DNA from: the human T2T-CHM13v2.0 reference genome, Homo sapiens
Direction: 5' to 3' (one strand)
Assembly (NCBI RefSeq): GCF_009914755.1
Contig: NC_060927.1
Length of the DNA: 64,000 nt
Below, one piece after another: positions 2,404-54,574 of this stretch (its first letter is position 1; each line of letters begins with the position of its first letter). The notes beneath the pieces are model-generated. The model was given only the letters and a program-made list of their open reading frames with translations. It was not told the origin of the DNA and did no database searches. The position numbers and the translations under genes are program-made.

Positions 2404-41453
<39,050 letters not shown>

Positions 41454-41999
41454 CCTTGTCTGATGCTGTGGAGCCTTAGTTGAGATTTCAGCATTTCCTA
41501 CCTTGTGCTTAGCTTTCAGATTATGGATGATTAAATTTGATGACTTATATGAGGGCAGATTCAAGAGCCAGCAGGTCAAAAAGGCCAACACAACCATAAG
41601 CAGCCAGACCCACAAGGCCAGGTCCTGTGCTATCACAGGGTCACCTCTTTTACAGTTAGAAACACCAGCCGAGGCCACAGAATCCCATCCCTTTCCTGAG
41701 TCATGGCCTCAAAAATCAGGGCCACCATTGTCTCAATTCAAATCCATAGATTTCGAAGCCACAGAGTCTCTCCCTGGAGCAGCAGACTATGGGCAGCCCA
41801 GTGCTGCCACCTGCTGACGACCCTTGAGAAGCTGCCATATCTTCAGGCCATGGGTTCACCAGCCCTGAAGGCACCTGTCAACTGGAGTGCTCTCTCAGCA
41901 CTGGGATGGGCCTGATAGAAGTGCATTCTCCTCCTATTGCCTCCATTCTCCTCTCTCTATCCCTGAAATCCAGGAAGTCCCTCTCCTGGTGCTCCAAGC

Positions 42000-42240
42000 A
42001 GTTTGAAGCCCAATCTGCAAGGACATTTCTCAAGGGCCATGTGGTTTTGCAGACAACCCTGTCCTCAGGCCTGAACTCACCATAGAGACCCATGTCAGCA
42101 AACGGTGACCAGCAAATCCTCTTCCCTTATTCTAAAGCTGCCCCTTGGGAGACTCCAGGGAGAAGGCATTGCTTCCTCCCTGGTGTGAACTCTTTCTTTG
42201 GTATTCCATCCACTATCCTGGCAACTCAAGGCTGCTTCTG
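42000..42240 (+). repeat. Local ~240-bp direct duplication, copy 1 (in TGM4 3' UTR)
   Basis: About 90% identical by eye to 43433-43670. Confidence 0.92.
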
Positions 42241-42307
42241 TTAACTGAAGCCTGCTCCTTCTTGTTCTGCCCTCCAGAGATTTGCTCAAATGATCAATAA
42301 GCTTTAA

Positions 42308-42313
42308 ATTAAA
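42308..42313 (+). terminator. TGM4 proximal poly(A) signal (ATTAAA)
   Basis: ATTAAA about 855 nt after the stop, followed by GT/T-rich sequence (tctgtggt...ttttttcttt). Confidence 0.65.
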
Positions 42314-42696
42314 CTCTACTTCAAGAAAACTCTGTGGTCCCTGAGTCCTTTTTTCTTTATGCCAATAAGCTTCTTAAATGTGCTGGCGGTTTATGCAGTC
42401 ACTTGGGGAGCCATGGAATCCTTTGATCTCCCCAGGCAAGGTGCTCTGAGGAGTTGGCTTCTTTATTGTCTGTTCAGTACATCCAACCCCTCTCTCAAAG
42501 GCTGTCACCCCAACTGGATACACACCCTGGCAAAGGCACGTAGCTTGAATGAGGGTTATTTTGTGTCTAATTCACAGGAGAGTCATGGGTGGGATACCTG
42601 TCATCCTCTGCCTTTCCAGCTGTCCAAGTGAAAAAAACCTCAATCCTGGTCACCCTTGCCCAAGTTGCCCACATCCCTGGCATACAGTAGGTGTTC

Positions 42697-42702
42697 AATA
42701 AA
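42697..42702 (+). terminator. Possible distal TGM4 poly(A) signal (AATAAA in an L2 3'-end remnant)
   Basis: cctggcatacagtaggtgttcAATAAAtgtttattgaa matches the L2 3' terminus. Confidence 0.45.
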
Positions 42703-43008
42703 TGTTTATTGAAGGAAAGGTGACTGTTCCTTCTGCTGGAAATACCACAAGGGTGGTGACACAAACAAGAGTTTGGTCAGTCACTCCACAGCACAGTGTC
42801 CGATCCCAAGAGGTGATATAGCCCGGCACGGCCACTGTGTGGTGCCGTATGACACTCACTTGTCTCCCACACTGGGAATGGAAGAAAAGTAGCTTTCCTA
42901 GAGGTGCCTTTAGGGTGGCCCATAAGGAAGGACACTGCCCAAGGGTTTGAGCTGGGATCTCTTAATTAAAACAGGAGACTCCAGTCACTGAGGGTGAGCA
43001 AAGAGCTT

Positions 43009-43014
43009 TTTATT
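43009..43014 (-). terminator. ZDHHC3 distal poly(A) signal (AATAAA on -)
   Basis: tttatt on +, just beyond the TGM4 3' end; would end the long UTR or the alternative last exon. Confidence 0.55.
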
Positions 43015-43432
43015 CAAAGAAAGAGGCAAATTGCACCCAATCTCTCTCCCTGTAAGATCTCATCTGGTTTTGACATCAGTTGCAATGCTTTCAGTCTGAG
43101 GCTAAGCAGAATGTTATGCTGTGAATGGTCACCACAGAGAGACCACTGTGTTGCTGGTGTGGGGAGGCGAGGCTCAGGGTTGGACAGGTTAATTACCTAC
43201 ATAACCCTGGCTGTGGCCCAGCCCAGCACCTCCCAGAACAGGGACTGACATGGCTGAGGTCTACCTTGGAGATGGGGTCAGTGAAGAGGGGAGGCAGGGT
43301 CAGCCTCTGTGCAAGTAAAATGCCCCCTCACCCCAGCCTTCCTTTCCAGAGCAACCAATCTGAAAACAGAATTGCCTTTGGGGCTGGTGTTGTACCTCTG
43401 CTTTCAGGCCAAGATGGATTCCCTAGAAGAGG

Positions 43433-43670
43433 AGTTTGAAGCCCAATGTGCAAGGACATTTCTCAAGGGCCATGTGGTTTTGCAGACACTGCTGTCCTCA
43501 GGCCTGAACTCACCATGGAAACCCATGTCAGCAAACAGTGACCAGCAAATCCTCTTCCCTTATTCTAACTGCTGCCCCCTAGGAGACTCCAGGGGGCAGG
43601 CATTGCTTCCTCCCTAGTGTGAACTCTCTGGTATTCCATCCACCATCCTGGCAGCCCAGAGCTGCTTCTG
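43433..43670 (+). repeat. Local ~240-bp direct duplication, copy 2
   Basis: About 90% identical by eye to 42000-42240. Confidence 0.92.
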
Positions 43671-44555
43671 GGTTAGGACAACAAATAGGGGGCCCTACAG
43701 TCAGAGCAGCTCTTACCCAAAGTGGTGAGCGTCAACTTCCTGTCCAGATTGCAAGTTAATGGCCTTTACAGCTGACTCGGGCTCCTATGTCGTCATTAAT
43801 AAATATTAAAGCTGATAAGGACCAAGAAAGTGGGCCTGCAGCCTGAGTGTGGGAGGCCCAATGTCTTTCTGGTTGCTCTGTTGATGTTAGAATCCCACCA
43901 TCACCCCTCTCGTGGGTCATAGTTGGAGAGCTCTGGCAAGGGTTAGGGCAGAGGTGGCTTTGTGAACACTGGGCCCTTTGAGCAATTAACCCCAGGCCCT
44001 AGTGGGTCATCAGTTGTAGAGAGACGGTCTCTGGCAGGATCGTTGCCCTTCACAGAGTGTCCAAAGATGCTGTCCAAGAACCAGGATGCTGCTTGGCTCT
44101 TTTCTTTCTCACGGTCGCCAGTTTCCTTTCTCAGCATCCTGAGGCTGCACCTCCAAACACTGACCTTCTTCTCCTCTGAACTGCAGCCACAGGCCCCTTG
44201 GGGCCAGGACTCATGCCCTTTTGCCTGGAGCTGGAAGGGGGGCCCTAACACTGAGGTCTTGCAGGGGCATGCTCTGCTGAGTGCCTGTGCTCCTGCCAAT
44301 CCTGACGCCAGTAGACGCTGGGGAAATGGGCCAAAGAGAGGAACAAAGGCACGTGGAGGGAGTGGGTGGTGAATCCACTTCTTATACCAAACGGGGATAA
44401 GAACCCTTCTGTTGGGCTTTGTGCAGAAGATGCTGCTTCAGCAACCACTGGAATGGGGTTTAGGAGCACCAGAACGCTGCTCAGACCTTCAGCAGTGGTC
44501 ACAGACACCACAGGCTTCAAATGGGGTGAATAGAGGGCAGACTCATCCTGGTGGG

Positions 44556-44577
44556 GTGTGTGTGTGTGTGTGTGTGT
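44556..44577. repeat. (GT)n microsatellite
   Basis: Seen directly. Confidence 0.88.
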
Positions 44578-45622
44578 TTGTCTATCTTCCTGATTCATCT
44601 GATTCATCAATCAGCAGACCCTGGCCATCACCCATCTTTTCAGAGACAAGATGGGCACCAATTTGGGAGAACTGGCCTTTTCAAACACACAGGCAGGGTT
44701 TATGGTCAGTTCTACCTACATGTGTTATTAGACTCCCTCCAAGAGGTAACATTCAATTAAGTTCTCATGCGAGTGGTTAGGGAGTCCCCAGTAGCTCCAA
44801 AGAGGTCCTTCCCATATCCACATCTGTGAATGGCTAGATATGTAGCCACAGGCAGGACAGCTCCCAGCTGTCTCGCTCAGTGAAGACTCCAGTGTCTGTG
44901 GAATGGGGGCTCATTTTCGGTGCTACTGTCTTAACTCTGGCTCTGTCCATGCTGGACATGTCCTGCACATGTGTGTGTAGAGCTTAATGCAGGGTCCTCT
45001 TTGAACCATGCCTGGCCCTTGCAGGTAGATGTGGCAGCCACCTCTACCTCCTAATTTCGGCAGGCAGCATGGGGAAGCCCTTTCCAGGGAGTAGCTGGCA
45101 GCTCTGCAGTCTTTCCAGGCTAGTCTCCCCTGATGTCAGTGTCCCAACCCAGGTCCCCAAGGCAAGCCCTGCCCGGTCCTTCTGTCACAACCTTACTTCT
45201 CAAAGCCAGGAGCCAGGGGCCCAGCCTTCCCAAGAGAAGACAGAAATCCTGGGGAAAGCCAAAGGCAAGCTCTTTTCTGCCCCTGGGATGCCCTGTTCAA
45301 AAGCTCCCTTTGCTGGGCGGAGAATGTGAAAGCCACCCAGTCTTGGAGAACGGTTCTTGATGAGCCGTCTCAGTGCAGACTCTTCTTAGATGAACTCTGA
45401 GAAAGCCCCCATCCTCCTCTGATGTCCCCAGCCTACTCCCGACCCCCAGACCTGGCCCAACATGGAGAGAAGAAGGAGGGGAAATGGCAAGGCCAAGCGA
45501 GTGGCTAAGGGAAGCACTGGGGGTGCTGGGAGCGCACCATGCCCATAAGCCCCTTTAGCCAAAACCCCAGGATGAAGGTTGACAGCACTTTTTAGTGTTT
45601 GCTTCTCTCCCCACAGCAGCAT

Positions 45623-45871
45623 CTATTCATCTGTCACCTCCACAGAGTCCTCGTCCTTCGTCTCCTCTGATGGATCCTCCATTGTTTCGGTGTCTGACAG
45701 CGATGTCACCTGCCGCACCATGTCTTTGTCACTGGGGATCTCTGGCTGACACGGTCTGGAGAAGGGGTTGAACCAGTTCAGGGAGAAGTCCCCACCAAAG
45801 GTCTCCTTTACTGACTGCCAGCTCCCCATGTGCTCCCTGGGCTGGTTCTTTCGTTTGAGGCGCTCGATGCC
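45623..45871 (-). CDS. ZDHHC3: ZDHHC3 alternative (paralogous) terminal coding exon, 82 aa
   Basis: Pyrimidine tract plus cctgcag|GGC ATC GAG, phase 0; GIERLKRK...WQSVKETFGGDFSLNWFNPF is homologous to the canonical last exon. Confidence 0.8.
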   Translation of the reverse strand, partial: GIERLKRKNQPREHMGSWQSVKETFGGDFSLNWFNPFSRPCQPEIPSDKDMVRQVTSLSDTETMEDPSEETKDEDSVEVTDE

Positions 45872-46829
45872 CTGCAGGGAGAAGGGGATGAAGAACATCG
45901 TCAGCGTGGTGCTGGGCTGTACAGCTCACATAGACACCCCCAGCTATAGCATAGCAGTGGCGGGGGGGGGGCGGGGTGTCCACGGCATGGGTAAGATGGG
46001 GTCTGAGTGGGCAGTCTGTTGTGGCCCAGGTCACCCCCGGGAGGTCCCTCAGAGGACTGCTGGGGTGTGGGTGGACAGCAGCGTGGAGGAACACAGCAAG
46101 CAGGGCCCGCCTGGTGGACTGACGTGTTCTCCACCCACCACCCAGCCCTCCCCTTCTTTCCTTCCACAAGTGCAATGCCAGATGATGGGCAGGGGCTAGG
46201 CTGATGAGTGGCTGAGGCATAAGGGGGACCACACATCCTCTGAGGCCACTACAAACTGGTGATCCCCTCCTAAATATTTTTGGCCACTCCCACCAGGGTA
46301 GATAGGGGCTGCAAACACAGCAGAAGGACGATGGGGTTAAGGAAGGAGTGCAGGACACAAACAGCATGCGAGGTGAAGAAGCGGGTGCTCGTACAGCAAG
46401 TGCCAACATGCATTAGGCAGCCGGAGGGCACACAGGACCACTGTGGGGAGGTAAGGCTGGGCTCAGGCCTGCTCATGCAGCAGATCCACCCTGCAGCCTC
46501 TTCCAAGCTGTCAACTCACCTGCCTCTGGGTGTCGGCTGCAACTCAGCCACCAGGCCACAGAAAGGGTGTTGGGGTGGGGAGATGCCCAGAGGAGGTAAA
46601 GACATGGCCAGGCCAGCTCTCCAGGCCCACAACACCCTGCACAGAGGCCTTTGACCCTCCACTGGGGGCACTGCTTTCTCCATCTCTTCTGGAAGCCAAG
46701 GGAATTTGCTGTGGGTTTGCTGGGCTTGGGCACTGCTCCTTCACATGACTCAAGAAAGATCTCTGTGTATCTAGCACTTTTTCTTCCCACGCCATTTCAG
46801 AGATTTAAGATTCTTGACTTTTGAATAAA

Positions 46830-47580
46830 TTCTAAGTTAAAAAAATTGGATCTCAAAAGTATATCCTCATAAGATACTTATCAATTACAAAGGGAAAAAC
46901 AGTACCTTAATAGCAGGGAAGAAACATTGCACGTACCACCTTCACCCAATGATCAAAGTTAACATCACAATAATGAAACGTATCAACACCATATGCCTCC
47001 TGATACGGTGCAACGAGGACACATTGCTTCAGCAGTGCTCCTGCCCCAAATGCCTAACCTCAATCTAATCATGAGAAAAACATCAAAAACACAATCTGAA
47101 GGACAGCCTACAGAATACCTGCCCTACAATCTTCAAAAGGGTCAAAGATTGATGAAAAGATTTTGGAACCAGACAGACCTGGTGGTTACAAAACATTGTG
47201 AATGCATTAAATGTACACTTTAAAATGGCTAATTTTGTGTTACAGGAATTTCACCTCGATTTTTAAAAAGGGTCAAGGTCATGAAAGACAAAGGAAGACT
47301 GAGGAACTGTCACAAACTGGAGGAGACTAAGGAGACATCGCAAATGATGCAGTGTGGGATCCTGGAACAGAAAAGGGTGTTAATGGGACAACTGGAGAAA
47401 TGTGAATAAGGTACATACATTAGTTAAGGGTATGGTGTTGCCAATGTCCAGGGTTTTATATTTGTATTATGGTTGTATAAAATGTTTACCTTTGGTGAGA
47501 CTGACTGAAAGGTACATGGGAACTCTTTGTACTGTTTTTGTCACATTTTTGTAAGTCTGATTTCACAAAAAGTTTAAAAA
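46830..47580 (+). mobile_element. Old L1MC/ME 3' fragments
   Basis: cctcaatctaatcatgagaaaaacatca...ggagactaaggagacat...gggaactctttgtactgtttttg. Confidence 0.6.
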
Positions 47581-50389
47581 TAATCAATAATCTGAGACAA
47601 AGATTTATGCAATACAAACTTGAACACTGAATTATAATAATGCAAAGCTGGAAATGAGAAATGCCCAATAATGATGGTTAAGCAAATGATTCTATAACAC
47701 TATGCAGCTAGAAAAGATGGTTTAATATGGTTTTACATGACATTAGAACATTTGTCTGAGTGGTTACTTTTGGGGATGGAATTCTAGAGGATTTGTATTT
47801 ATTTCTGTAGACTTCTCACACAATCCAAGTTTTACCAATGAGCCAATGTTACTTTTATAATCAGAACAAAAATAGTTGTTTCAGAAAATGGATCTTGTTG
47901 ACACAAGTCTAAAGGGACCTTCATGTGGGTCATGAGCATGTGATGCCATGCTGCTTCCTGACTGGCCCCTCGCCAGGCCTCCCTTCTTGGCACAGAAGCA
48001 GTGACCAGCTGAGATGGTTTGCTTTGGGCATTCTGCATTCTCTTCCTGGGTGATCATCTGCAGCCTGTTGAGAAAGAGGCTTTAACTTCATAGCACGAGA
48101 GCTGGGACATCACCATATGGCAGACCCGGCTACAGAGGAAACACCCAAAAATGACAGACTGGCTGCATCCACACTGACTTGGACTCAAAGCCATGACCAT
48201 AGGTTTTTATGGCCTCCTTGTGAGGAGGTGGGTATGAGTATTGATGATTGGCAGATGGGGAAGAAACAGAAGTTCCAAGAGGCCATGACGGTGGCCAAGG
48301 CTCATCTAGCTTGTTATGTATCAGAACTGGAACCAGAACTAGTGTCTTTTTTTCTGCCCAACAGGTTTCCAGTTCTACTGCAAATCACCACTGTGCCCAG
48401 GCTGAGCTCAGTCAGAGAGAAGGGGAATGAAGCCAAGAGCCCACAGGATGATTATTTGCCATTCATGTGGCATGCTCCCAGATAGGCACTCTTGGATTAT
48501 ACTCAACCTCCTCACCAACCTCATAAAGTATTCCAGACAGAGCCTGGCCTGTCTACCAGAGGTCTTCAGCAGTAAAGTCGACAAACTTTCAGGGAGTGTT
48601 GACTTTTGAGTCTAGAAAGAAAATATTGCAAACAAATCCGATGTATAAAAATGGGCTGAGGGCTGCTTTTTCCTGGTAGGACTCAATTTTGAGTTTTGTG
48701 TGGATTTAAAGGGATCCTGCAGGCAAAGTTCTTAAGCTTGAGGTTTGCAGAGGAGCAGTAATAGTAGCTTCAGGCTCAAGAGAACGAACAAAAATGGTTG
48801 ATGCCTGGTAAGGGGGTCATAGTCGACACCAGAAGCTCTTGCAGGGTGTGTGATGGGCCTTTTGGCCCAGGTCAGTCTGGGTGACACATGAGCTGTGATC
48901 TGTGAACAAACTCACCAACACTCCAAAATGAATGTATTAGGACTAAGGCTCCCGAGGAAGGAAGAGTCTGTGCAGAACAGACTCAGCTGAGCCCCACAGA
49001 ACGAGAACAGGCTGTTCCCTGCTCCCTGTATCATCAGATGTAGAAAGCCAGAGCCTCAGGGAGCAGCCTATGCAAATGTGTCTCTTCATAGCGGGCCAGA
49101 TAACACTGTCTCTCCTCATCAGAGATTTCATACCTCTATATTGTAACCCACAAGAGGAAACATTTTTCTGTTGCATTCCAGAACACATATACACACAACT
49201 CCCTAAGCTTCATAAAACAATACTTATCCTGCAATATGTAATGCATTAAACATTTTTCTTGAAAAACATGCTGGTTGCAAACCATGAATGGCTGTGACCA
49301 ATGGTTTGAAAAGCACAGCTCCAACACAGCTAACATTTATAAAGCCATACCAGGGCCAGACGCTATACATTCCTATTCATCACCCTCATTTAATCCTTCC
49401 ATTAACTTTGTGATTTAGATTATCATTCCCGTTTTCAGATGAAAAAACTGAGGCTTAAAGAAGTTACTGCTCAAGGTCATATTTTGGTAGTAGGTGCGGT
49501 AATAAGTAGCCAAGCAGACATTTCAACCAAAGACTGAAGCCAGGACCCAAATACTTGGTCACCAGACTATATGGCCTCAGCTGCAGAAATTCAGGGCATC
49601 CTTATGTCCGTGTTAGAGCATGTGCGGCCCCTAGAAGGCTTTTAGCGAACGTCCCTCTGCAGCGCTTGTCCTCACTCCTTGGATCAGCTTCATCGGCTCC
49701 TCCTGTGGGCCCAACAGAGCGGGATCCCTGGGGGCCACTCTGCTTTGCTACGGCAATCACACTGCTCAAGTCAGCAAGATGTTTACTTGAGGGAGAGGGT
49801 GAGAAAAAGAAGGTTCAGGTTGGGAGTACGCTGGTCAGTGGCTTGTTTCTGCTTCACTGTGAATTCTTTCTCTTCTATGAGGTGATCCTAAGCCAGATAC
49901 ATATTTAAAGAATACAAGAAAAAGCCACATGGGTGTTGAAACCCACACGTAGAAAGCAAAGGTCAAGACGTGTTCAGGTCATGTATCCAGGCTGCTACAA
50001 TGCCCCTGGCTCTAGACTACTCACCGGCCGCCGCTCCCATCTGGAGGTCCCTTGGTTCTACTCTTTTCTCTTTCCCTTCCGGGCTGCTTCTTCACCCAAA
50101 GGGCCCTTGGTCTAGAGATGGGTTCCACTGATGAGATGCACAAGGAGTGGTGGGCAGGCTAATAATTTGGATCTGCTTCATACAGACTTTCTTTGATGTC
50201 TTGGCAGTTGTTTGTTGGGGAGGCCGCAGCTTATGAGGGAAGGCAGTCTCAGTGGCTTCTCCGCGGAGGGAACACGTGCCTGTCTCACAATCAGCACACC
50301 CCAACTGCACTATGCTGAGCCCAGCAGCACACAAGACCCATATCACCAGCAGGCATCAGGGACCACCTGAGGGGGGACTCCTGCTAGCC

Positions 50390-50580
50390 CCAACTGGATT
50401 CTCAAACTTGATAGTCAGAATCACCTGGAGGGCTGTTAAGACACGGGCTGCTGGGCCCCGCTCGGTTTCTGGTTCGGTAGCCTGGGGTGGGGACCGAGAA
50501 TGTGCATTTCTAACAAGTTCTCAGGTGATGCTGATGTTGACGTTGCTGGTCTGGCAACCTCAAGAACACCTTTGAGGAGG
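50390..50580. mobile_element. MER5-type DNA transposon remnant
   Basis: ttctcaaactt...agaatcacctggagggc...gcatttctaacaagttctcaggtgatgctgatg. Confidence 0.7.
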
Positions 50581-50715
50581 ATTCTAGCAAAATCTTTCTC
50601 TTTTCACATTTCTTTGATATCTAAGGGCACCTTCTAGGTGGGGCGCCTTCCCCTCTACTGGCTGGCTCACCCTTTAAGCTGATGCACTGCAAGTCTTGAA
50701 AAGAGAGAAATTTAA

Positions 50716-51120
<405 letters not shown>

Positions 51121-51246
51121 TTAAAATGTTTGTTAATTTACCTCACCTAAACGGTTTCTGCATTAGGGGACGGTGGATTCTAACTATTTAAGTGGCCTAG
51201 CCAGATGAGCAAAAGCTAATACTTGGGGCTTTTTCAAGAAGTACAG

Positions 51247-51540
51247 GGCTGGGCCCAGTGGCTCACGCCTGTAATCCCAGGACTTTGGGAGGCTAAGGCA
51301 GGAAAATTGCTGGAGGCCGGGCATTTGAGACTAGCTAGGGCAACACAGTGAGACCCTGACTCTATTAAAAAACAAAAAAATTAGCCAGGCATGGTAGTAC
51401 GTGCCTGTAGCCCTGGATATTCAGGAGGCCAAGGCACAAGAATCACTTGAGCCCAGGAGTTCAAGGCTGCAGTGAGCTCTAATTGTGCCACTGCATTCCA
51501 GCCTGGGTGACAGAGCAAGACCTTGTCTCAAACAAAAAAG
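51247..51540 (+). mobile_element. AluJ, inverted relative to the neighbouring AluY
   Basis: Dimer; TSD-like gaagtacag. Confidence 0.88.
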
Positions 51541-52911
51541 AGGAAGTACAGTATGAAGAAGACAAAATGGTGGGACTAAAAGGAGATTTAGCACATGCAC
51601 TTCTACCCAAATGTGTTTTGTGTACATGATATTACCAAGCCCATGCAAATATGCATAGATTATAGATTTGCTTGGATCTAAGCCTTTTGCATATTCAGTC
51701 TAGTTGCTATGAACACAAACCTGACAGAGTTGACAGAAGGAAAGCAAGCTGGGGATCACAATCCAACAAGCCACATCTTTATTTTTCACTTCCACTCCCC
51801 AGAGCCCAGGCTCTGAAAGACTGTGGCTACGACTGGTTCAATTTCCCATGAGTGCACCAAACAGTACTATCAGAACTCCTGTGACCAAGCCAAAAGTTGG
51901 GGCTGACTTTGTGTAGAAAGATGTCCTCTTTCATTACATCCGGAAATACTGAGGAGAGCTCAGGGATGCTTTCCCTTCCTGTCCTGTGTGGAAGCCAGGC
52001 TGGGAACCAATCACTACCCTGCAAATGATGGCTACATTCCTCAGTCATTGTGCTCTTGGCAAAATATCAGTCTGAACAAAAATGAAATAGGAAAAATGCC
52101 AGGAACCTTGGGGTATTCCTATCTTCTGAGAGCAACTGGTTTGAGAGCTCAGAAACATTGACTCTTTCTAGCCAAGGCCTATACAAAACCAGAGGCAGAA
52201 TCCTATAGGATATCTGAAGGAACCCCACTCTATTGGAAAGATAAGCATAGTATGCACAGCTTTAAAGGAGGAGTTTCTATTTTTAGGACTAAAAAAAAGT
52301 CAGTGCATCTTCAGCACTATCTACTGCATTCCTGAGAAATGCCAGGGGAAAAGAGCTAACCTGGCTCACTTTAAAAAATGCCCTGGAAGATGGAGTATTA
52401 CCAATCTCTTCCCCCTAGGGGAGGGCCAGAGCTGTAGCCCTGCTCTAGTTATTTAATACAATAACACTTCTTTCATACACCTAACTGAGCTGTATGTTAT
52501 GAAAAAATTTTAAAAAAGCATATGGAAAACAAATGCTATCAACTTGATCTAAAACAGCATTCTTTTCTTTTTAATCTTAGCATCTCAGCCTCGCCCGTAT
52601 CGCATGAATAGCACCGTAGACACGAGGTAAAGTTAACTGACTCAGGAAAGCTCTTAGGAGAGCCCATCAGCACAAAGGAATTGATTCAGGCTGCAGAAAG
52701 CAAAGGAAAGAGGCCTGGTGGGGCAAGCTGGTTCAAGAGAGGGACCATAAATGCATTTTAAAACAAAAAAAATAAAGTATCCTCATTCAAGAGACAGAGC
52801 AATGAAACAAACACCCAACCAGAGAAAACTCAAGTAGATTGTGGATAGTCGGCCTCCCACTAAGGGTAACACCTCAAGAGAGAGCTAAATCAGAACAGGT
52901 TTTGGAAAAAT

Positions 52912-52917
52912 TTTATT
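52912..52917 (-). terminator. ZDHHC3 proximal poly(A) signal (AATAAA on -)
   Basis: tttatt on + about 1.5 kb past the canonical stop, with a U/GU-rich region downstream on -. Confidence 0.55.
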
Positions 52918-54415
52918 GCATTTTGTTTCCATGTGGAAGCACTGACAGAATTGAAAAGTGGCAGCATGTTCCACTTACTTTTCTGAAAAATCACATGGCT
53001 AGATTAACTTTCGCCCTACCCAGGACAGGATTGAATAAACCTTAACTCCTACCCCCACCCCAAGCAAAAGCTAAAAAAGGGGGTTTCTGGCAATTGCTTA
53101 AAAAACAAATCAATGTGTGAGAATTCCCCGATGGTCAATAATCATATTTGTTATTTTTGCACTTGGAGGGCACTCCCTACCTCCTTCACCTCTATCCACC
53201 ATCACCACCTCCTTCAAACAAGACTGACACAGGAAGTGCCTCTCAAATGGAAAATCTATTCTGTCCCAGTGCCACAGGCTTAGGTGTGTCTGTGGATTCT
53301 GGCCAATGGGATGGCCATATGTCAACTTTGAAAGGGTGGGGACTGTGAGGTAACCCCAGCATCATGGTCATCTCCATGCCAGGACAACAGTCTCCCAGGT
53401 TAAAATATAGATAAGACACAGGTACGTGCACATTTATGGGGGTTAACTATCAGAAAGTGAATCCACTTTGAGGTTTATAAAATGAGAAGGGGATGATGGT
53501 GGGGCTGTATGTGTTGGGCACTGGTGCCTATTGCAGTCAGAATTCACACTGCTTAATTGACATCTTGCTGGGGAAGAGAGGGAGATGGGGTGGTGAGAGA
53601 GGAAGCAGATGAAACAAAGGAAAACGTAGCTTGCCTGAAATTGTGTAATTTTTTTTCCTCTTGATTGTATAAGGCATTTTGAACTGGAAAAACGTCTTTC
53701 CTACACACTCTTCCAAATAATCACAGGGAATATAATTGCTGATTCAGAATACAAATAAGACCTCTTTCATCTTTCTCCCCACTCCCCCGCAAAATCATTC
53801 TACACACCCCAAGCCCATAAAGTACAAGGCAGGCAATTGCTTTGCGAGTTAGCAGGCAAACCGTGTCCACTTGGGGGATGAGGTCGCTGTGCCAAGGTCC
53901 CTTCTGATCCTGCCCTTCTCAGGCCTCAAGGGGTAAGCATCCATCTTCGGTGAGGTTTTATGTCCCATCGGGGAGCCCGCCACTGCCTCCTGGGCAGTGG
54001 GAGGTCAGGGCCCTCCTGGCTTTCCCATGCATCCCCCACCAGGTGTCCAGACTATTCCATCCACGCACAGCGTCATGTCTCACTCAGTTAGTAGAATGGG
54101 CACAGCGCGAGACAGCGCCCTCTACATTAGTCATGCCAGACAGACAGCAGAGAGAAACCAGAGGCCAGAGAAGTGATTTTAAAAGGAAAAGAGAGCAGCT
54201 TCGGTCACCAAAAGAAATCGAAAGGATGGTTTTTAAAAAATAAAATGTGGGGACTTTTTTTTTTCTCTGCAATGCTCAGCCATTTTACTTGAGACATAAA
54301 AAAAGTTTTAAGAGTAGTTGTTTTGCTTTTTCGATTTAAACATTCATGAGAACGGATGGGACGGTAGTGCTGTGGTGTGGACTTGTGTCTGAGTGGCCAT
54401 GCCGGTCGGGGTCCT

Positions 54416-54574
54416 TCAGACCACATACTGGTACGGGTCTGCCTTCCCTTGGTCTGGCGTGGCAAAGGGGCTGGCCCAGCCTAGAGAGAAGGGGTGGCCA
54501 AAAACGGCTTTCATGTTCATCCATTTTGTTTTTTTAGCCCATCTTCTCTCTTCCTTTTTCAATTGTTCTATTCC
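54416..54574 (-). CDS. ZDHHC3: ZDHHC3 canonical terminal coding exon
   Basis: ttttcag|GGA ATA GAA...GTG GTC TGA; 52 aa [37 protein letters not shown]...YQYVV. Confidence 0.96.

What the first reader, a model, noticed from the sequence alone, without database searches (positions are those of the whole stretch)
42000..43670. 240-bp duplication makes the TGM4 and ZDHHC3 3' UTRs complementary without genomic overlap
Seen: 42000-42240 and 43433-43670 are direct copies (about 90% by eye, including a 40-nt perfect run tgcaaggac...gcagaca) that I cannot match to a known repeat. Copy 1 lies in the TGM4 3' UTR upstream of ATTAAA 42308. Copy 2 lies upstream (on -) of the minus-strand AATAAA at 43009-43014, so it would be transcribed antisense within long ZDHHC3 mRNAs. 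Inference: the two convergent mRNAs could form a ~240-bp intermolecular duplex (ADAR, Staufen or Dicer substrate, or masking of miRNA/RBP sites). This would couple a broadly expressed palmitoyltransferase to a prostate-restricted transglutaminase.
Basis: partly seen in the sequence, partly recalled or inferred. Interest (0 to 1): 0.75.

Follow-up and report, generated by a model that had tools for sequence, protein, structure and literature searches.

The report
Unique 244-bp duplication spanning TGM4/ZDHHC3 ends
A real, genome-unique 244-base copy-and-paste duplication sits on either side of the tail-to-tail ends of TGM4 and ZDHHC3, so their mRNAs could in principle pair, but it looks most like an old neutral repair scar and nothing yet shows that the pairing happens or matters.

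Summary
Copy 1 (41997-42240) and copy 2 (43430-43670) are direct repeats, 221 of 245 aligned columns identical (90.2%), with a 40-nt perfect run. They are the only two copies in the 3.1-Gb genome, so this is not an interspersed repeat. The edges are sharp, and the 1189-bp spacer has no homology to the sequence after copy 2. It is therefore a short local insertional duplication, not a tandem one.

By the supplied annotation, copy 1 lies in the TGM4 3' UTR and copy 2, antisense, in the ZDHHC3 3' UTR. The gene ends are 270 bp apart. In silico the two RNA segments form 229 intermolecular base pairs.

Nothing supports function:
- The copies are no more accessible than the rest of the UTRs.
- Substitutions do not favour pair-preserving changes (8 of 13 transitions, p=0.29).
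- No paper links the two genes at RNA level.

TGM4 introns hold a second genome-unique duplication of the same divergence, and it has no antisense geometry. One of its copies interrupts an Alu, a templated-insertion scar.

Best reading: a neutral, primate-age repair product, with complementarity as a by-product. Interest is modest.

The parts
41997..42240 (+). Copy 1 of the duplication (244 nt). It lies in the TGM4 3' UTR, 543 nt after the stop codon, 67 nt before ATTAAA 42308 and 478 nt before the annotated mRNA end at 42718.
   Evidence: hub annotation for the exon and CDS
43430..43670 (-). Copy 2 (241 nt). At DNA level it is a direct (+/+) repeat of copy 1. It is transcribed from the minus strand within the ZDHHC3 terminal exon, 441-681 nt upstream of the annotated 3' end at 42989 and about 10.7 kb after the stop codon of NM_001135179.2.
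   Evidence: hub annotation
42016..42055 (+). The 40-nt stretch identical in both copies (partner 43449-43488). It is the longest perfect helix of the putative duplex.
42241..43429 (.). The 1189-bp spacer, unique DNA holding the 3' ends of both genes. It has no homology to 43671 onward, so the structure is A-X-A and not a tandem duplication.
42308..42313 (+). ATTAAA, a candidate middle TGM4 poly(A) signal downstream of copy 1.
42697..42702 (+). AATAAA 16-21 nt before the annotated TGM4 end (42718). It lies in a short multi-copy stretch, 42673-42717, that looks like a MIR tail (family name recalled).
41530..41535 (+). Proximal ATTAAA in the TGM4 3' UTR. Transcripts ending here would lack copy 1.
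43009..43014 (-). AATAAA on the minus strand, 20-25 nt upstream of the annotated ZDHHC3 3' end (42989).
   Evidence: hub annotation

Best explanation
This is a fixed, primate-age, short local insertional duplication. A ~244-bp piece of unique DNA was copied once and pasted 1.43 kb away in the same orientation. The most likely route is templated repair of a chromosome break or replication template switching (MMBIR/FoSTeS-type or polymerase-theta-type templated insertion). The donor and recipient sites happen to lie on opposite sides of the 270-bp gap between the convergent 3' ends of TGM4 and ZDHHC3. The annotated mRNAs therefore carry a gene-pair-specific ~240-nt complementarity. I read that complementarity as a neutral by-product. 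A duplex is thermodynamically possible, but there is no sign it was selected or has an effect. Shown here: the repeat, its uniqueness, its sharp edges, the transcript geometry (from annotation) and the in-silico duplex. Inferred: the repair mechanism, the age and neutrality.
For: The repeat has two copies only in 3.1 Gb. Within the window both copies have exactly one partner, whereas 13% of the window has 3 or more.

The edges are sharp. The 100-nt flanks on each side align no better than shuffles: left flank score reached by 282 of 1000 shuffles, right flank by 479 of 1000. A low-stringency self-comparison of 39000-47000 finds no other homology between the spacer and the sequence after copy 2. 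TRF finds no tandem array in 41000-45000 (0 rows).

The copies are not coding: every one of the 6 frames of each copy has at least one stop. There is no Rfam family match: 2 chance-level hits, far below gathering score and outside the copies.

There is an internal precedent for the mechanism. TGM4 introns hold a second genome-unique direct duplication, 17026-17198 versus 18908-19082 (158 of 176 columns identical, JC 0.086, 2 copies in the genome). Its upstream copy sits between two pieces of one Alu-like element whose matched positions are nearly contiguous. 16922-17029 matches 19824-19931 and 17201-17246 matches 19949-19994, with about 17 Alu positions missing. That is the signature of a templated insertion with a small deletion at a break. 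Its divergence equals that of the main pair (JC 0.084).

There is no selection signal for pairing. 8 of 13 transitions would keep a G:U pair, binomial p=0.29. The mean probability that a 10-nt stretch is unpaired is 0.061 in copy 1 versus 0.051 in the rest of the TGM4 UTR, and 0.022 in copy 2 versus 0.034 in the rest of the distal ZDHHC3 UTR.
Against: Neutrality is argued from absence of evidence. I had no orthologous primate or mammalian sequences, no expression, editing, crosslinking or population data. Constraint on either copy was therefore not measured.

The duplex is strongly favoured in silico: cofold -450 kcal/mol, 229 intermolecular pairs, and a net gain of -298 kcal/mol versus -7.6 to -21.8 for 20 other 241-nt pieces of the ZDHHC3 3' UTR. 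It is the only complementarity above chance level (one other 22-nt match, E=0.88) between TGM4 mRNA and the ZDHHC3 exons in the window.

The two templates are 1.4 kb apart, so nascent transcripts would be unusually close.

Intermolecular 3' UTR pairing that triggers Staufen-mediated decay is reported for Alu pairs (PMC6426291, passage read).

For the main pair I could not tell which copy is derived. I also could not show junction microhomology, because the pre-insertion allele is not available.
Confidence: 0.72

Rival explanations
1. One reading: the two mRNAs form a ~240-bp imperfect intermolecular duplex in prostate luminal cells, perhaps co-transcriptionally at the adjoining 3' ends. The duplex recruits a dsRNA-binding factor (STAU1/UPF1 decay, ADAR editing, or Dicer) and so couples ZDHHC3 long-isoform output to TGM4 expression.
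For: The geometry is correct under the annotation. The in-silico duplex has 229 bp and a net gain of -298 kcal/mol, versus at most -21.8 for 20 control pieces. Perfect helices of 40, 31 and 25 bp exist. One jointly accessible perfect 10-mer nucleation site lies near 42121-42135 / 43554-43568, with joint probability about 0.09. This is the only complementarity above chance level (one other 22-nt match, E=0.88) between the two mRNAs in the window. mRNA-mRNA pairing through 3' UTR SINEs is reported to trigger Staufen-mediated decay of both partners (PMC6426291, passage). A 2026 preprint argues for editing through intermolecular sense-antisense dsRNA (10.64898/2026.03.25.714158, abstract only).
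Against: There is no direct evidence of any kind. The copies are not unusually accessible, and the substitutions are not biased to preserve pairing. PMC13445718 (abstract and Discussion read) finds editing rare even in perfect cis-antisense overlaps and mostly explained by intramolecular structure. Copy 2 is present only in ZDHHC3 isoforms that run to 42989. Seven upstream minus-strand AATAAA/ATTAAA hexamers (47721-52912) and an annotated alternative end at 47703 could yield shorter forms (annotation). TGM4 transcripts using ATTAAA 41530 would lack copy 1. An equally old duplication in TGM4 introns has no such geometry. No paper links the genes at RNA level: the two names co-occur in 3 papers, all about synteny or GWAS.
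Confidence: 0.08
2. Remnant of a larger tandem duplication with a 1433-bp unit. The second unit was later mostly deleted or diverged, leaving only the 244-bp homology.
For: The A-X-A layout with 1433-bp spacing is formally what a tandem duplication truncated just after A would leave.
Against: No residual similarity exists between X (42241-43429) and 43671 onward, even at word size 7 and E<=10. The flanks are indistinguishable from shuffles. At about 8% divergence inside A, the neighbouring sequence should still be about 90% identical if it had been duplicated. An exact secondary deletion would therefore be needed.
Confidence: 0.05
3. RNA-templated origin: a fragment of TGM4 mRNA (or of ZDHHC3 mRNA) was reverse-transcribed and captured at a nearby break. 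The complementarity would then descend directly from a transcript.
For: Both copies lie wholly inside mature 3' UTR exons of expressed genes (annotation). The orientation fits TGM4 sense RNA as donor.
Against: There is no poly(A) tail and no shared flank at either copy. The parallel duplication at 17026/18908 copies intronic sequence, which points to a DNA (or at most pre-mRNA) template. Nothing in the sequence separates RNA from DNA templating for the main pair.
Confidence: 0.08
4. The 244 bp is a low-copy or ancient interspersed repeat (transposable-element fragment) that happens to occur twice here.
For: No repeat library could be consulted. Ancient families can escape BLAST. A MIR-like fragment lies nearby at 42673-42717.
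Against: Only 2 matches exist in the whole genome, even at E<=10. The 40-mer allowing 3 mismatches gives 2 forward and 0 reverse hits, and 0 for the reversed control. Two independent insertions of an otherwise extinct family 1.4 kb apart, in the same orientation, with identical end points and 90% identity, is far less likely than a local copy.
Confidence: 0.02

Closest known systems
Intermolecular Staufen-binding sites formed by partially complementary 3' UTR Alu elements of two mRNAs, or of an mRNA and a lncRNA (Gong & Maquat 2011; Gong, Tang & Maquat 2013, as summarised in PMC6426291; passage read)
   Same: Two different polyadenylated RNAs carry imperfectly complementary segments of about 250-300 nt, and both segments lie in 3' UTRs. 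The identity level (~90%) is in the range of Alu pairs or better.
   Different: The segment is not a SINE and exists only twice in the genome. The pairing would be specific to one gene pair instead of a many-to-many network. The partners are adjacent convergent genes. No STAU1 binding or decay data exist for them.
Trans-natural antisense transcripts created by duplication, e.g. pseudogene-derived trans-NATs (Muro & Andrade-Navarro 2010, PMC2984423; abstract read)
   Same: Duplication of a transcribed segment into a place where the opposite strand is transcribed creates complementarity between RNAs from two loci.
   Different: Here the copy is a 244-bp UTR fragment, not a gene or pseudogene. 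Both partners are protein-coding mRNAs. The two loci are only 1.4 kb apart.
Tail-to-tail cis-natural antisense pairs (overlapping convergent genes)
   Same: The genes are convergent neighbours with closely spaced 3' ends. Read-through of either gene would produce true antisense RNA to the other.
   Different: The annotated transcripts do not overlap; the gap is 270 bp (annotation). The complementarity is paralogous (90%) rather than perfect.
Templated insertions / local copy-paste scars of break repair or template switching (MMBIR; e.g. PMC8421209, seen only as search listing and start of abstract)
   Same: A short stretch of nearby unique sequence is re-copied at a second site with sharp edges. 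The sister event in TGM4 introns replaces about 17 positions of an Alu with a 173-bp copy taken from 1.9 kb away.
   Different: At 244 bp and 173 bp these are at the long end for such insertions (my recollection). They are old fixed germline events rather than somatic ones. Junction microhomology could not be assessed for the main pair.

Membership tests
Interspersed repeat / transposable element | Many dispersed copies in the genome | tested here: not met
   2 of 2 matches are the two local copies. The 40-mer with up to 3 mismatches gives 2 forward and 0 reverse hits. Caveat: the tool scores best candidates only, and no Dfam library was available.
Interspersed repeat / transposable element | Own target-site duplications, terminal repeats or a poly(A) tail at each copy | tested here: inconclusive
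   Reading the flanks shows no poly(A) tail and no evident short direct repeat around either copy. This was not tested statistically.
Tandem duplication | Head-to-tail adjacent copies of the whole unit | tested here: not met
   The 1189-bp spacer has no homology to the sequence after copy 2. TRF gives 0 rows in 41000-45000.
Templated insertion (break repair / template switching) | A copy of nearby unique sequence with sharp boundaries at a second site | tested here: met
   for the main pair. for the sister pair, where the copy interrupts an Alu-like element.
Templated insertion (break repair / template switching) | Junction microhomology or a small deletion at the recipient site, judged against the pre-insertion allele | not testable with these tools
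   This needs outgroup primate genomes, and none are held. For the sister pair, about 17 Alu positions are missing at the insertion point.
Cis-natural antisense pair | Genomic overlap of transcripts from opposite strands | tested here: not met
   The annotated ends are 42718 (+) and 42989 (-), a gap of 270 bp (annotation). Read-through transcripts could not be examined.
Trans-natural antisense pair | Extended complementarity between RNAs from non-overlapping loci | tested here: met
   229 predicted intermolecular base pairs. This is the only complementarity above chance level (one other 22-nt match, E=0.88) between TGM4 mRNA and the ZDHHC3 exons in the window. It depends on the supplied annotation.
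Trans-natural antisense pair | Co-expression and physical pairing in cells | not testable with these tools
   No expression, crosslinking or editing data are available. TGM4 is prostate-restricted (PMC8246381).
Intermolecular Staufen-binding site (SMD) | Both pairing elements lie in 3' UTRs downstream of the stop codons | tested here: met
   Copy 1 begins 543 nt after the TGM4 stop. Copy 2 lies about 10.7 kb after the ZDHHC3 stop (annotation).
Intermolecular Staufen-binding site (SMD) | Pairing elements are SINEs (Alu) | tested here: not met
   The sequence is genome-unique. In the window self-comparison it matches none of the multi-copy elements (depth 1).
Intermolecular Staufen-binding site (SMD) | STAU1 binding and UPF1-dependent decay of the partners | not testable with these tools
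   This needs wet-lab work.
ADAR substrate | Clustered A-to-I editing in the paired region | not testable with these tools
   No editing database is held. The paper search 'ZDHHC3 + A-to-I + UTR' returned 8 papers. I opened one, where ZDHHC3 appears for m6A, not editing. The other 7 were seen as listings only.

The most novel reading that the evidence does not exclude
A gene-pair-specific, non-repeat trans-antisense module. The 240-nt complementarity, held 1.4 kb apart at adjoining convergent terminators, lets the very abundant androgen-driven TGM4 transcript pair co-transcriptionally with the long-3'UTR ZDHHC3 isoform in prostate luminal cells. Pairing would lower or relocalise that isoform through STAU1/UPF1 or ADAR. 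This would be a primate-specific, tissue-specific tuning of a palmitoyltransferase by a neighbouring gene's UTR.
Probability: 0.06. Interest if true: 0.65.

Novelty: new member of a known kind. Interest (0 to 1): 0.3.

Why it matters
If the duplex formed and acted, it would be a clean, non-Alu example of mRNA-mRNA regulation between two protein-coding neighbours. It would also be unusually easy to test. There are only two copies in the genome, one partner is switched on by androgen in one cell type, and deleting 244 bp of a UTR should be harmless otherwise. That test would bear on the open question of whether intermolecular dsRNA between endogenous mRNAs has any role in human somatic cells.

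As it stands, the finding is a well-defined small duplication with a curious geometry. It is useful mainly as a candidate test case. Together with the sister event in TGM4 introns, it is also an example of old germline templated insertions. The direct repeats are a possible substrate for a 1.43-kb deletion that would remove both genes' poly(A) sites (inference, not tested).

Tried and rejected
- **Extended homology.** Low-stringency self-BLAST of 39000-47000 and a flank alignment against 1000 shuffles found none.
- **Tandem array.** TRF on 41000-45000 gave 0 rows.
- **Common repeat.** Four genome searches on the copies and their surroundings were run. The surroundings are unique except for a MIR-like tail at 42673-42717 (8 short hits) and a (GT)n run. 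The 10 short hits fall on that (GT)n run.
- **Structured RNA family.** Rfam at E<=1 over 41000-45000 gave 2 chance-level hits, bits 21.7 and 19.8 against gathering scores of 67 and 100. Neither lies in a copy.
- **Coding potential.** All 12 frames (6 per copy) contain stops.
- **Selection for pairing.** The wobble-versus-mismatch test gave 8 of 13, p=0.29. It is underpowered.
- **Accessibility.** A local-folding unpaired-probability scan shows the copies are not special.
- **Which copy is derived, and dating by presence or absence in primates.** Not possible; no eukaryotic outgroup genomes are held.
- **Literature.** 'TGM4 + ZDHHC3' gave 3 papers, none on RNA interplay; one was opened and concerns synteny only. 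'ZDHHC3 + A-to-I + UTR' gave 8 papers; one was opened and concerns m6A. 'TGM4 + antisense + polyadenylation' gave 1 paper, on TGM6, seen as listing only. The search does not cover the supplementary tables of editing or RNA-interactome papers, and I did not open any.
Full report
**Observation**

The window holds a direct repeat at 41997-42240 (244 nt) and 43430-43670 (241 nt), start-to-start spacing 1433.
- A gapped alignment has 245 columns, of which 221 are identical (90.2%).
- There are 19 substitutions (13 transitions, 6 transversions) and 5 gap columns. JC distance is 0.084 and K2P 0.084.
Further perfect runs are 31, 25, 18, 16 and 15 nt.
- The match is far beyond chance: E 8e-76 within 8 kb and 1.1e-86 genome-wide.

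**Uniqueness**

The window's own 3.1-Gb assembly contains only these two copies.
- BLAST with copy 1 at E<=0.001 gives 2 matches. BLAST with copy 2 at E<=10 gives 2 matches.
- The 40-mer with up to 3 mismatches occurs twice forward and never reverse. The reversed control occurs 0 times.
- In a self-comparison of the whole window, both copies have exactly one partner. By contrast, 15.7% of the window has at least one partner and 13.0% has three or more, which are the Alu-like families.
- The neighbouring DNA is also unique: 41300-41996 gives a self hit only.
- 42241-43429 gives a self hit plus 8 short hits confined to 42673-42717. 43671-44600 gives a self hit plus 10 short hits on a (GT)n run.
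- Caveats: the genome tool scores only its best candidates and skips very common words, and no Dfam or RepeatMasker library was available.

**Anatomy**

Homology stops abruptly at both ends.
- The 100 nt to the left and to the right of the copies align no better than shuffled sequence: 282 of 1000 and 479 of 1000 shuffles reach the observed score.
- The 1189-bp spacer has no similarity to what follows copy 2, even at word size 7. TRF reports nothing in 41000-45000.
- The structure is therefore A-X-A: one short segment re-copied 1.43 kb away in the same orientation. It is not a tandem duplication and not a transposon.
- All six frames of both copies contain stops.
- Rfam gives only two chance-level hits outside the copies.

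**Transcript geometry**

This section depends on the hub's RefSeq table.
- The TGM4 last exon is 41312-42718, with coding ending at 41453. Copy 1 begins 543 nt into the 3' UTR. It ends 67 nt before ATTAAA 42308 and 478 nt before the annotated end, which follows AATAAA 42697.
- A proximal ATTAAA at 41530 could give transcripts without copy 1.
- The ZDHHC3 selected transcript has a terminal exon 42989-54574 on the minus strand. AATAAA (-) at 43009-43014 lies 20-25 nt from the annotated end. Copy 2 lies 441-681 nt upstream of that end.
- Minus-strand AATAAA/ATTAAA hexamers in this UTR are at 43009, 47721, 47798, 49389, 51778, 52452, 52570 and 52912. None lies between copy 2 and 47721.
- Transcripts that pass the annotated alternative end at 47703 should therefore contain copy 2; shorter isoforms would not.
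- The annotated ends of the two genes are 270 bp apart. The genes converge, so a direct DNA repeat gives complementary RNAs.

**Could the RNAs pair?**

In silico, yes.
- The TGM4 segment and the ZDHHC3 segment co-fold to -450 kcal/mol with 229 intermolecular pairs. Their self-folds are -69.7 and -82.4 kcal/mol, a net gain of -298.
- The same TGM4 segment with 20 other 241-nt pieces of the ZDHHC3 3' UTR gains only -7.6 to -21.8.
- This is the only complementarity above chance level between the 3391-nt TGM4 mRNA and the ZDHHC3 exons in the window. The next hit is 22 nt at E=0.88.
- This only restates 90% identity. It says nothing about cells.

Two sequence-level tests for something beyond a by-product were negative.
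- The copies are no more accessible than the rest of their UTRs. The mean probability that 10 nt are unpaired is 0.061 versus 0.051 for TGM4, and 0.022 versus 0.034 for ZDHHC3. The best jointly open perfect 10-mer is near 42121-42135, with joint probability about 0.09.
- Of the 13 transitions, 8 would leave a G:U pair and 5 an A:C mismatch, p=0.29. Both tests are weak.

**A sister event points to the mutational mechanism**

The window contains a second genome-unique direct duplication in TGM4 introns flanking the exon at 18334-18463.
- It is 17026-17198 versus 18908-19082, with 158 of 176 columns identical, JC 0.086 and spacing 1882. Only these two copies exist in the genome.
- The upstream copy lies inside an Alu-like element. 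16922-17029 matches 19824-19931 and 17201-17246 matches 19949-19994 of a nearby Alu. The same holds for the inverted Alu at 20072-20403.
- The two flanks are thus nearly contiguous Alu positions with about 17 positions missing. An Alu cannot insert around a segment, so the upstream copy is the derived one: a 173-bp templated insertion with a small deletion at a break.
- This event is the same size class, distance class, orientation and divergence as the main pair. It has no antisense transcript geometry.
- That is my main reason to treat the TGM4/ZDHHC3 duplication as a product of the same neutral process: break repair or replication template switching that copies nearby DNA. Templated insertions of the MMBIR kind are described (PMC8421209, seen only as listing and start of abstract).
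- For the main pair I could not tell donor from recipient.

**Age (inference)**

A K2P of 0.084 between paralogues means about 4% per copy.
- Set against recalled genome-wide divergences (human-macaque about 6-7% over two branches), the event falls around or before the catarrhine ancestor, roughly 25-45 million years ago.
- Sampling error is wide, with only 19 substitutions. Gene conversion between the copies could make the estimate too young.
- Presence or absence in other primates would settle it. No such genomes are held here.

**Literature**

- TGM4 and ZDHHC3 co-occur in 3 papers. The one I opened uses Zdhhc3 only as a conserved flank of Tgm4 in rodents and human (PMC7556508, passage). 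The other two are GWAS papers seen as listings.
- Searches for ZDHHC3 with A-to-I editing (8 papers; one opened and it concerns m6A) and for TGM4 with antisense and polyadenylation (1 paper, on TGM6, listing only) gave nothing relevant. In the searched library, the pairing idea is therefore not in print. Supplementary tables of editing or interactome studies were not searched.
- For the mechanism class: intermolecular pairing of 3' UTR SINEs between mRNAs is reported to create Staufen-binding sites and to target both mRNAs (PMC6426291, passage). Duplication as a source of trans-antisense RNAs has been proposed for pseudogenes (PMC2984423, abstract).
- Against: a 2026 transcriptome-wide study finds editing rare even where perfect sense-antisense pairs are co-transcribed, and mostly explained by intramolecular structure. 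The authors note that strong expression asymmetry could hide editing of the rarer partner (PMC13445718, abstract and Discussion).
- A 2026 preprint argues the opposite for antisense lncRNAs (10.64898/2026.03.25.714158, abstract only).
- TGM4 is androgen-dependent and prostate-restricted (PMC8246381, passages). If pairing occurs, I infer that the scarcer ZDHHC3 long isoform would be the affected partner, not TGM4.

**Verdict**

- The segment is a genome-unique, old, short local duplication, best explained as a templated-insertion scar.
- The resulting 3' UTR complementarity is real on paper but has no support as a functioning duplex, and background knowledge makes function unlikely (about 6-8%).
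- It is a tidy, cheaply testable candidate, not a discovery. Interest 0.3.

Noticed in passing
window 17026-17198 and 18908-19082: A second genome-unique direct duplication lies in TGM4 introns on either side of the exon at 18334-18463. It has 158 of 176 columns identical and JC 0.086, the same divergence as the main pair. The upstream copy splits an Alu-like element (16865-17029 | 17201-17246) with about 17 Alu positions missing, so it is the derived copy: a templated insertion at a break.
   Followed up: yes
window 42673-42717: The stretch carrying the distal TGM4 AATAAA (42697) and the annotated mRNA end has 8 short (33-41 nt, 90-97%) matches elsewhere in the genome. It resembles the tail of a MIR element (family name recalled, no library check). 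The selected TGM4 poly(A) signal may therefore be repeat-derived.
   Followed up: partly
window 21637-22141: A C-rich minisatellite with a 20-bp period and about 24 copies (76% matches) lies in the TGM4 intron after the exon at 21306-21424. Higher-order periods of 48, 108 and 148 are also reported.
   Followed up: partly
window 19706-20399: An inverted pair of Alu-like elements (self-inverted match, 79% over 711 columns) lies in a TGM4 intron. This is an intramolecular dsRNA candidate in the pre-mRNA, and so a more conventional ADAR substrate than the trans-duplex.
   Followed up: no
window 9117-9225 and 11149-11257: An inverted repeat pair (81% over 111 columns) has only one partner within the window. 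It lies near the alternative TGM4 exon 9811-9945 and the RefSeq enhancer 11624-12301. Genome copy number was not checked.
   Followed up: no
window 44557-44579: A (GT)n microsatellite lies in the ZDHHC3 3' UTR and accounts for the 10 short genome-wide hits.
   Followed up: partly
window 43798-43810: Plus-strand AATAAA (43798) and ATTAAA (43805) lie about 130 nt downstream of copy 2. A read-through TGM4 isoform ending there would carry both copies in tandem orientation and overlap the ZDHHC3 3' UTR by about 830 nt. No transcript evidence was available.
   Followed up: no
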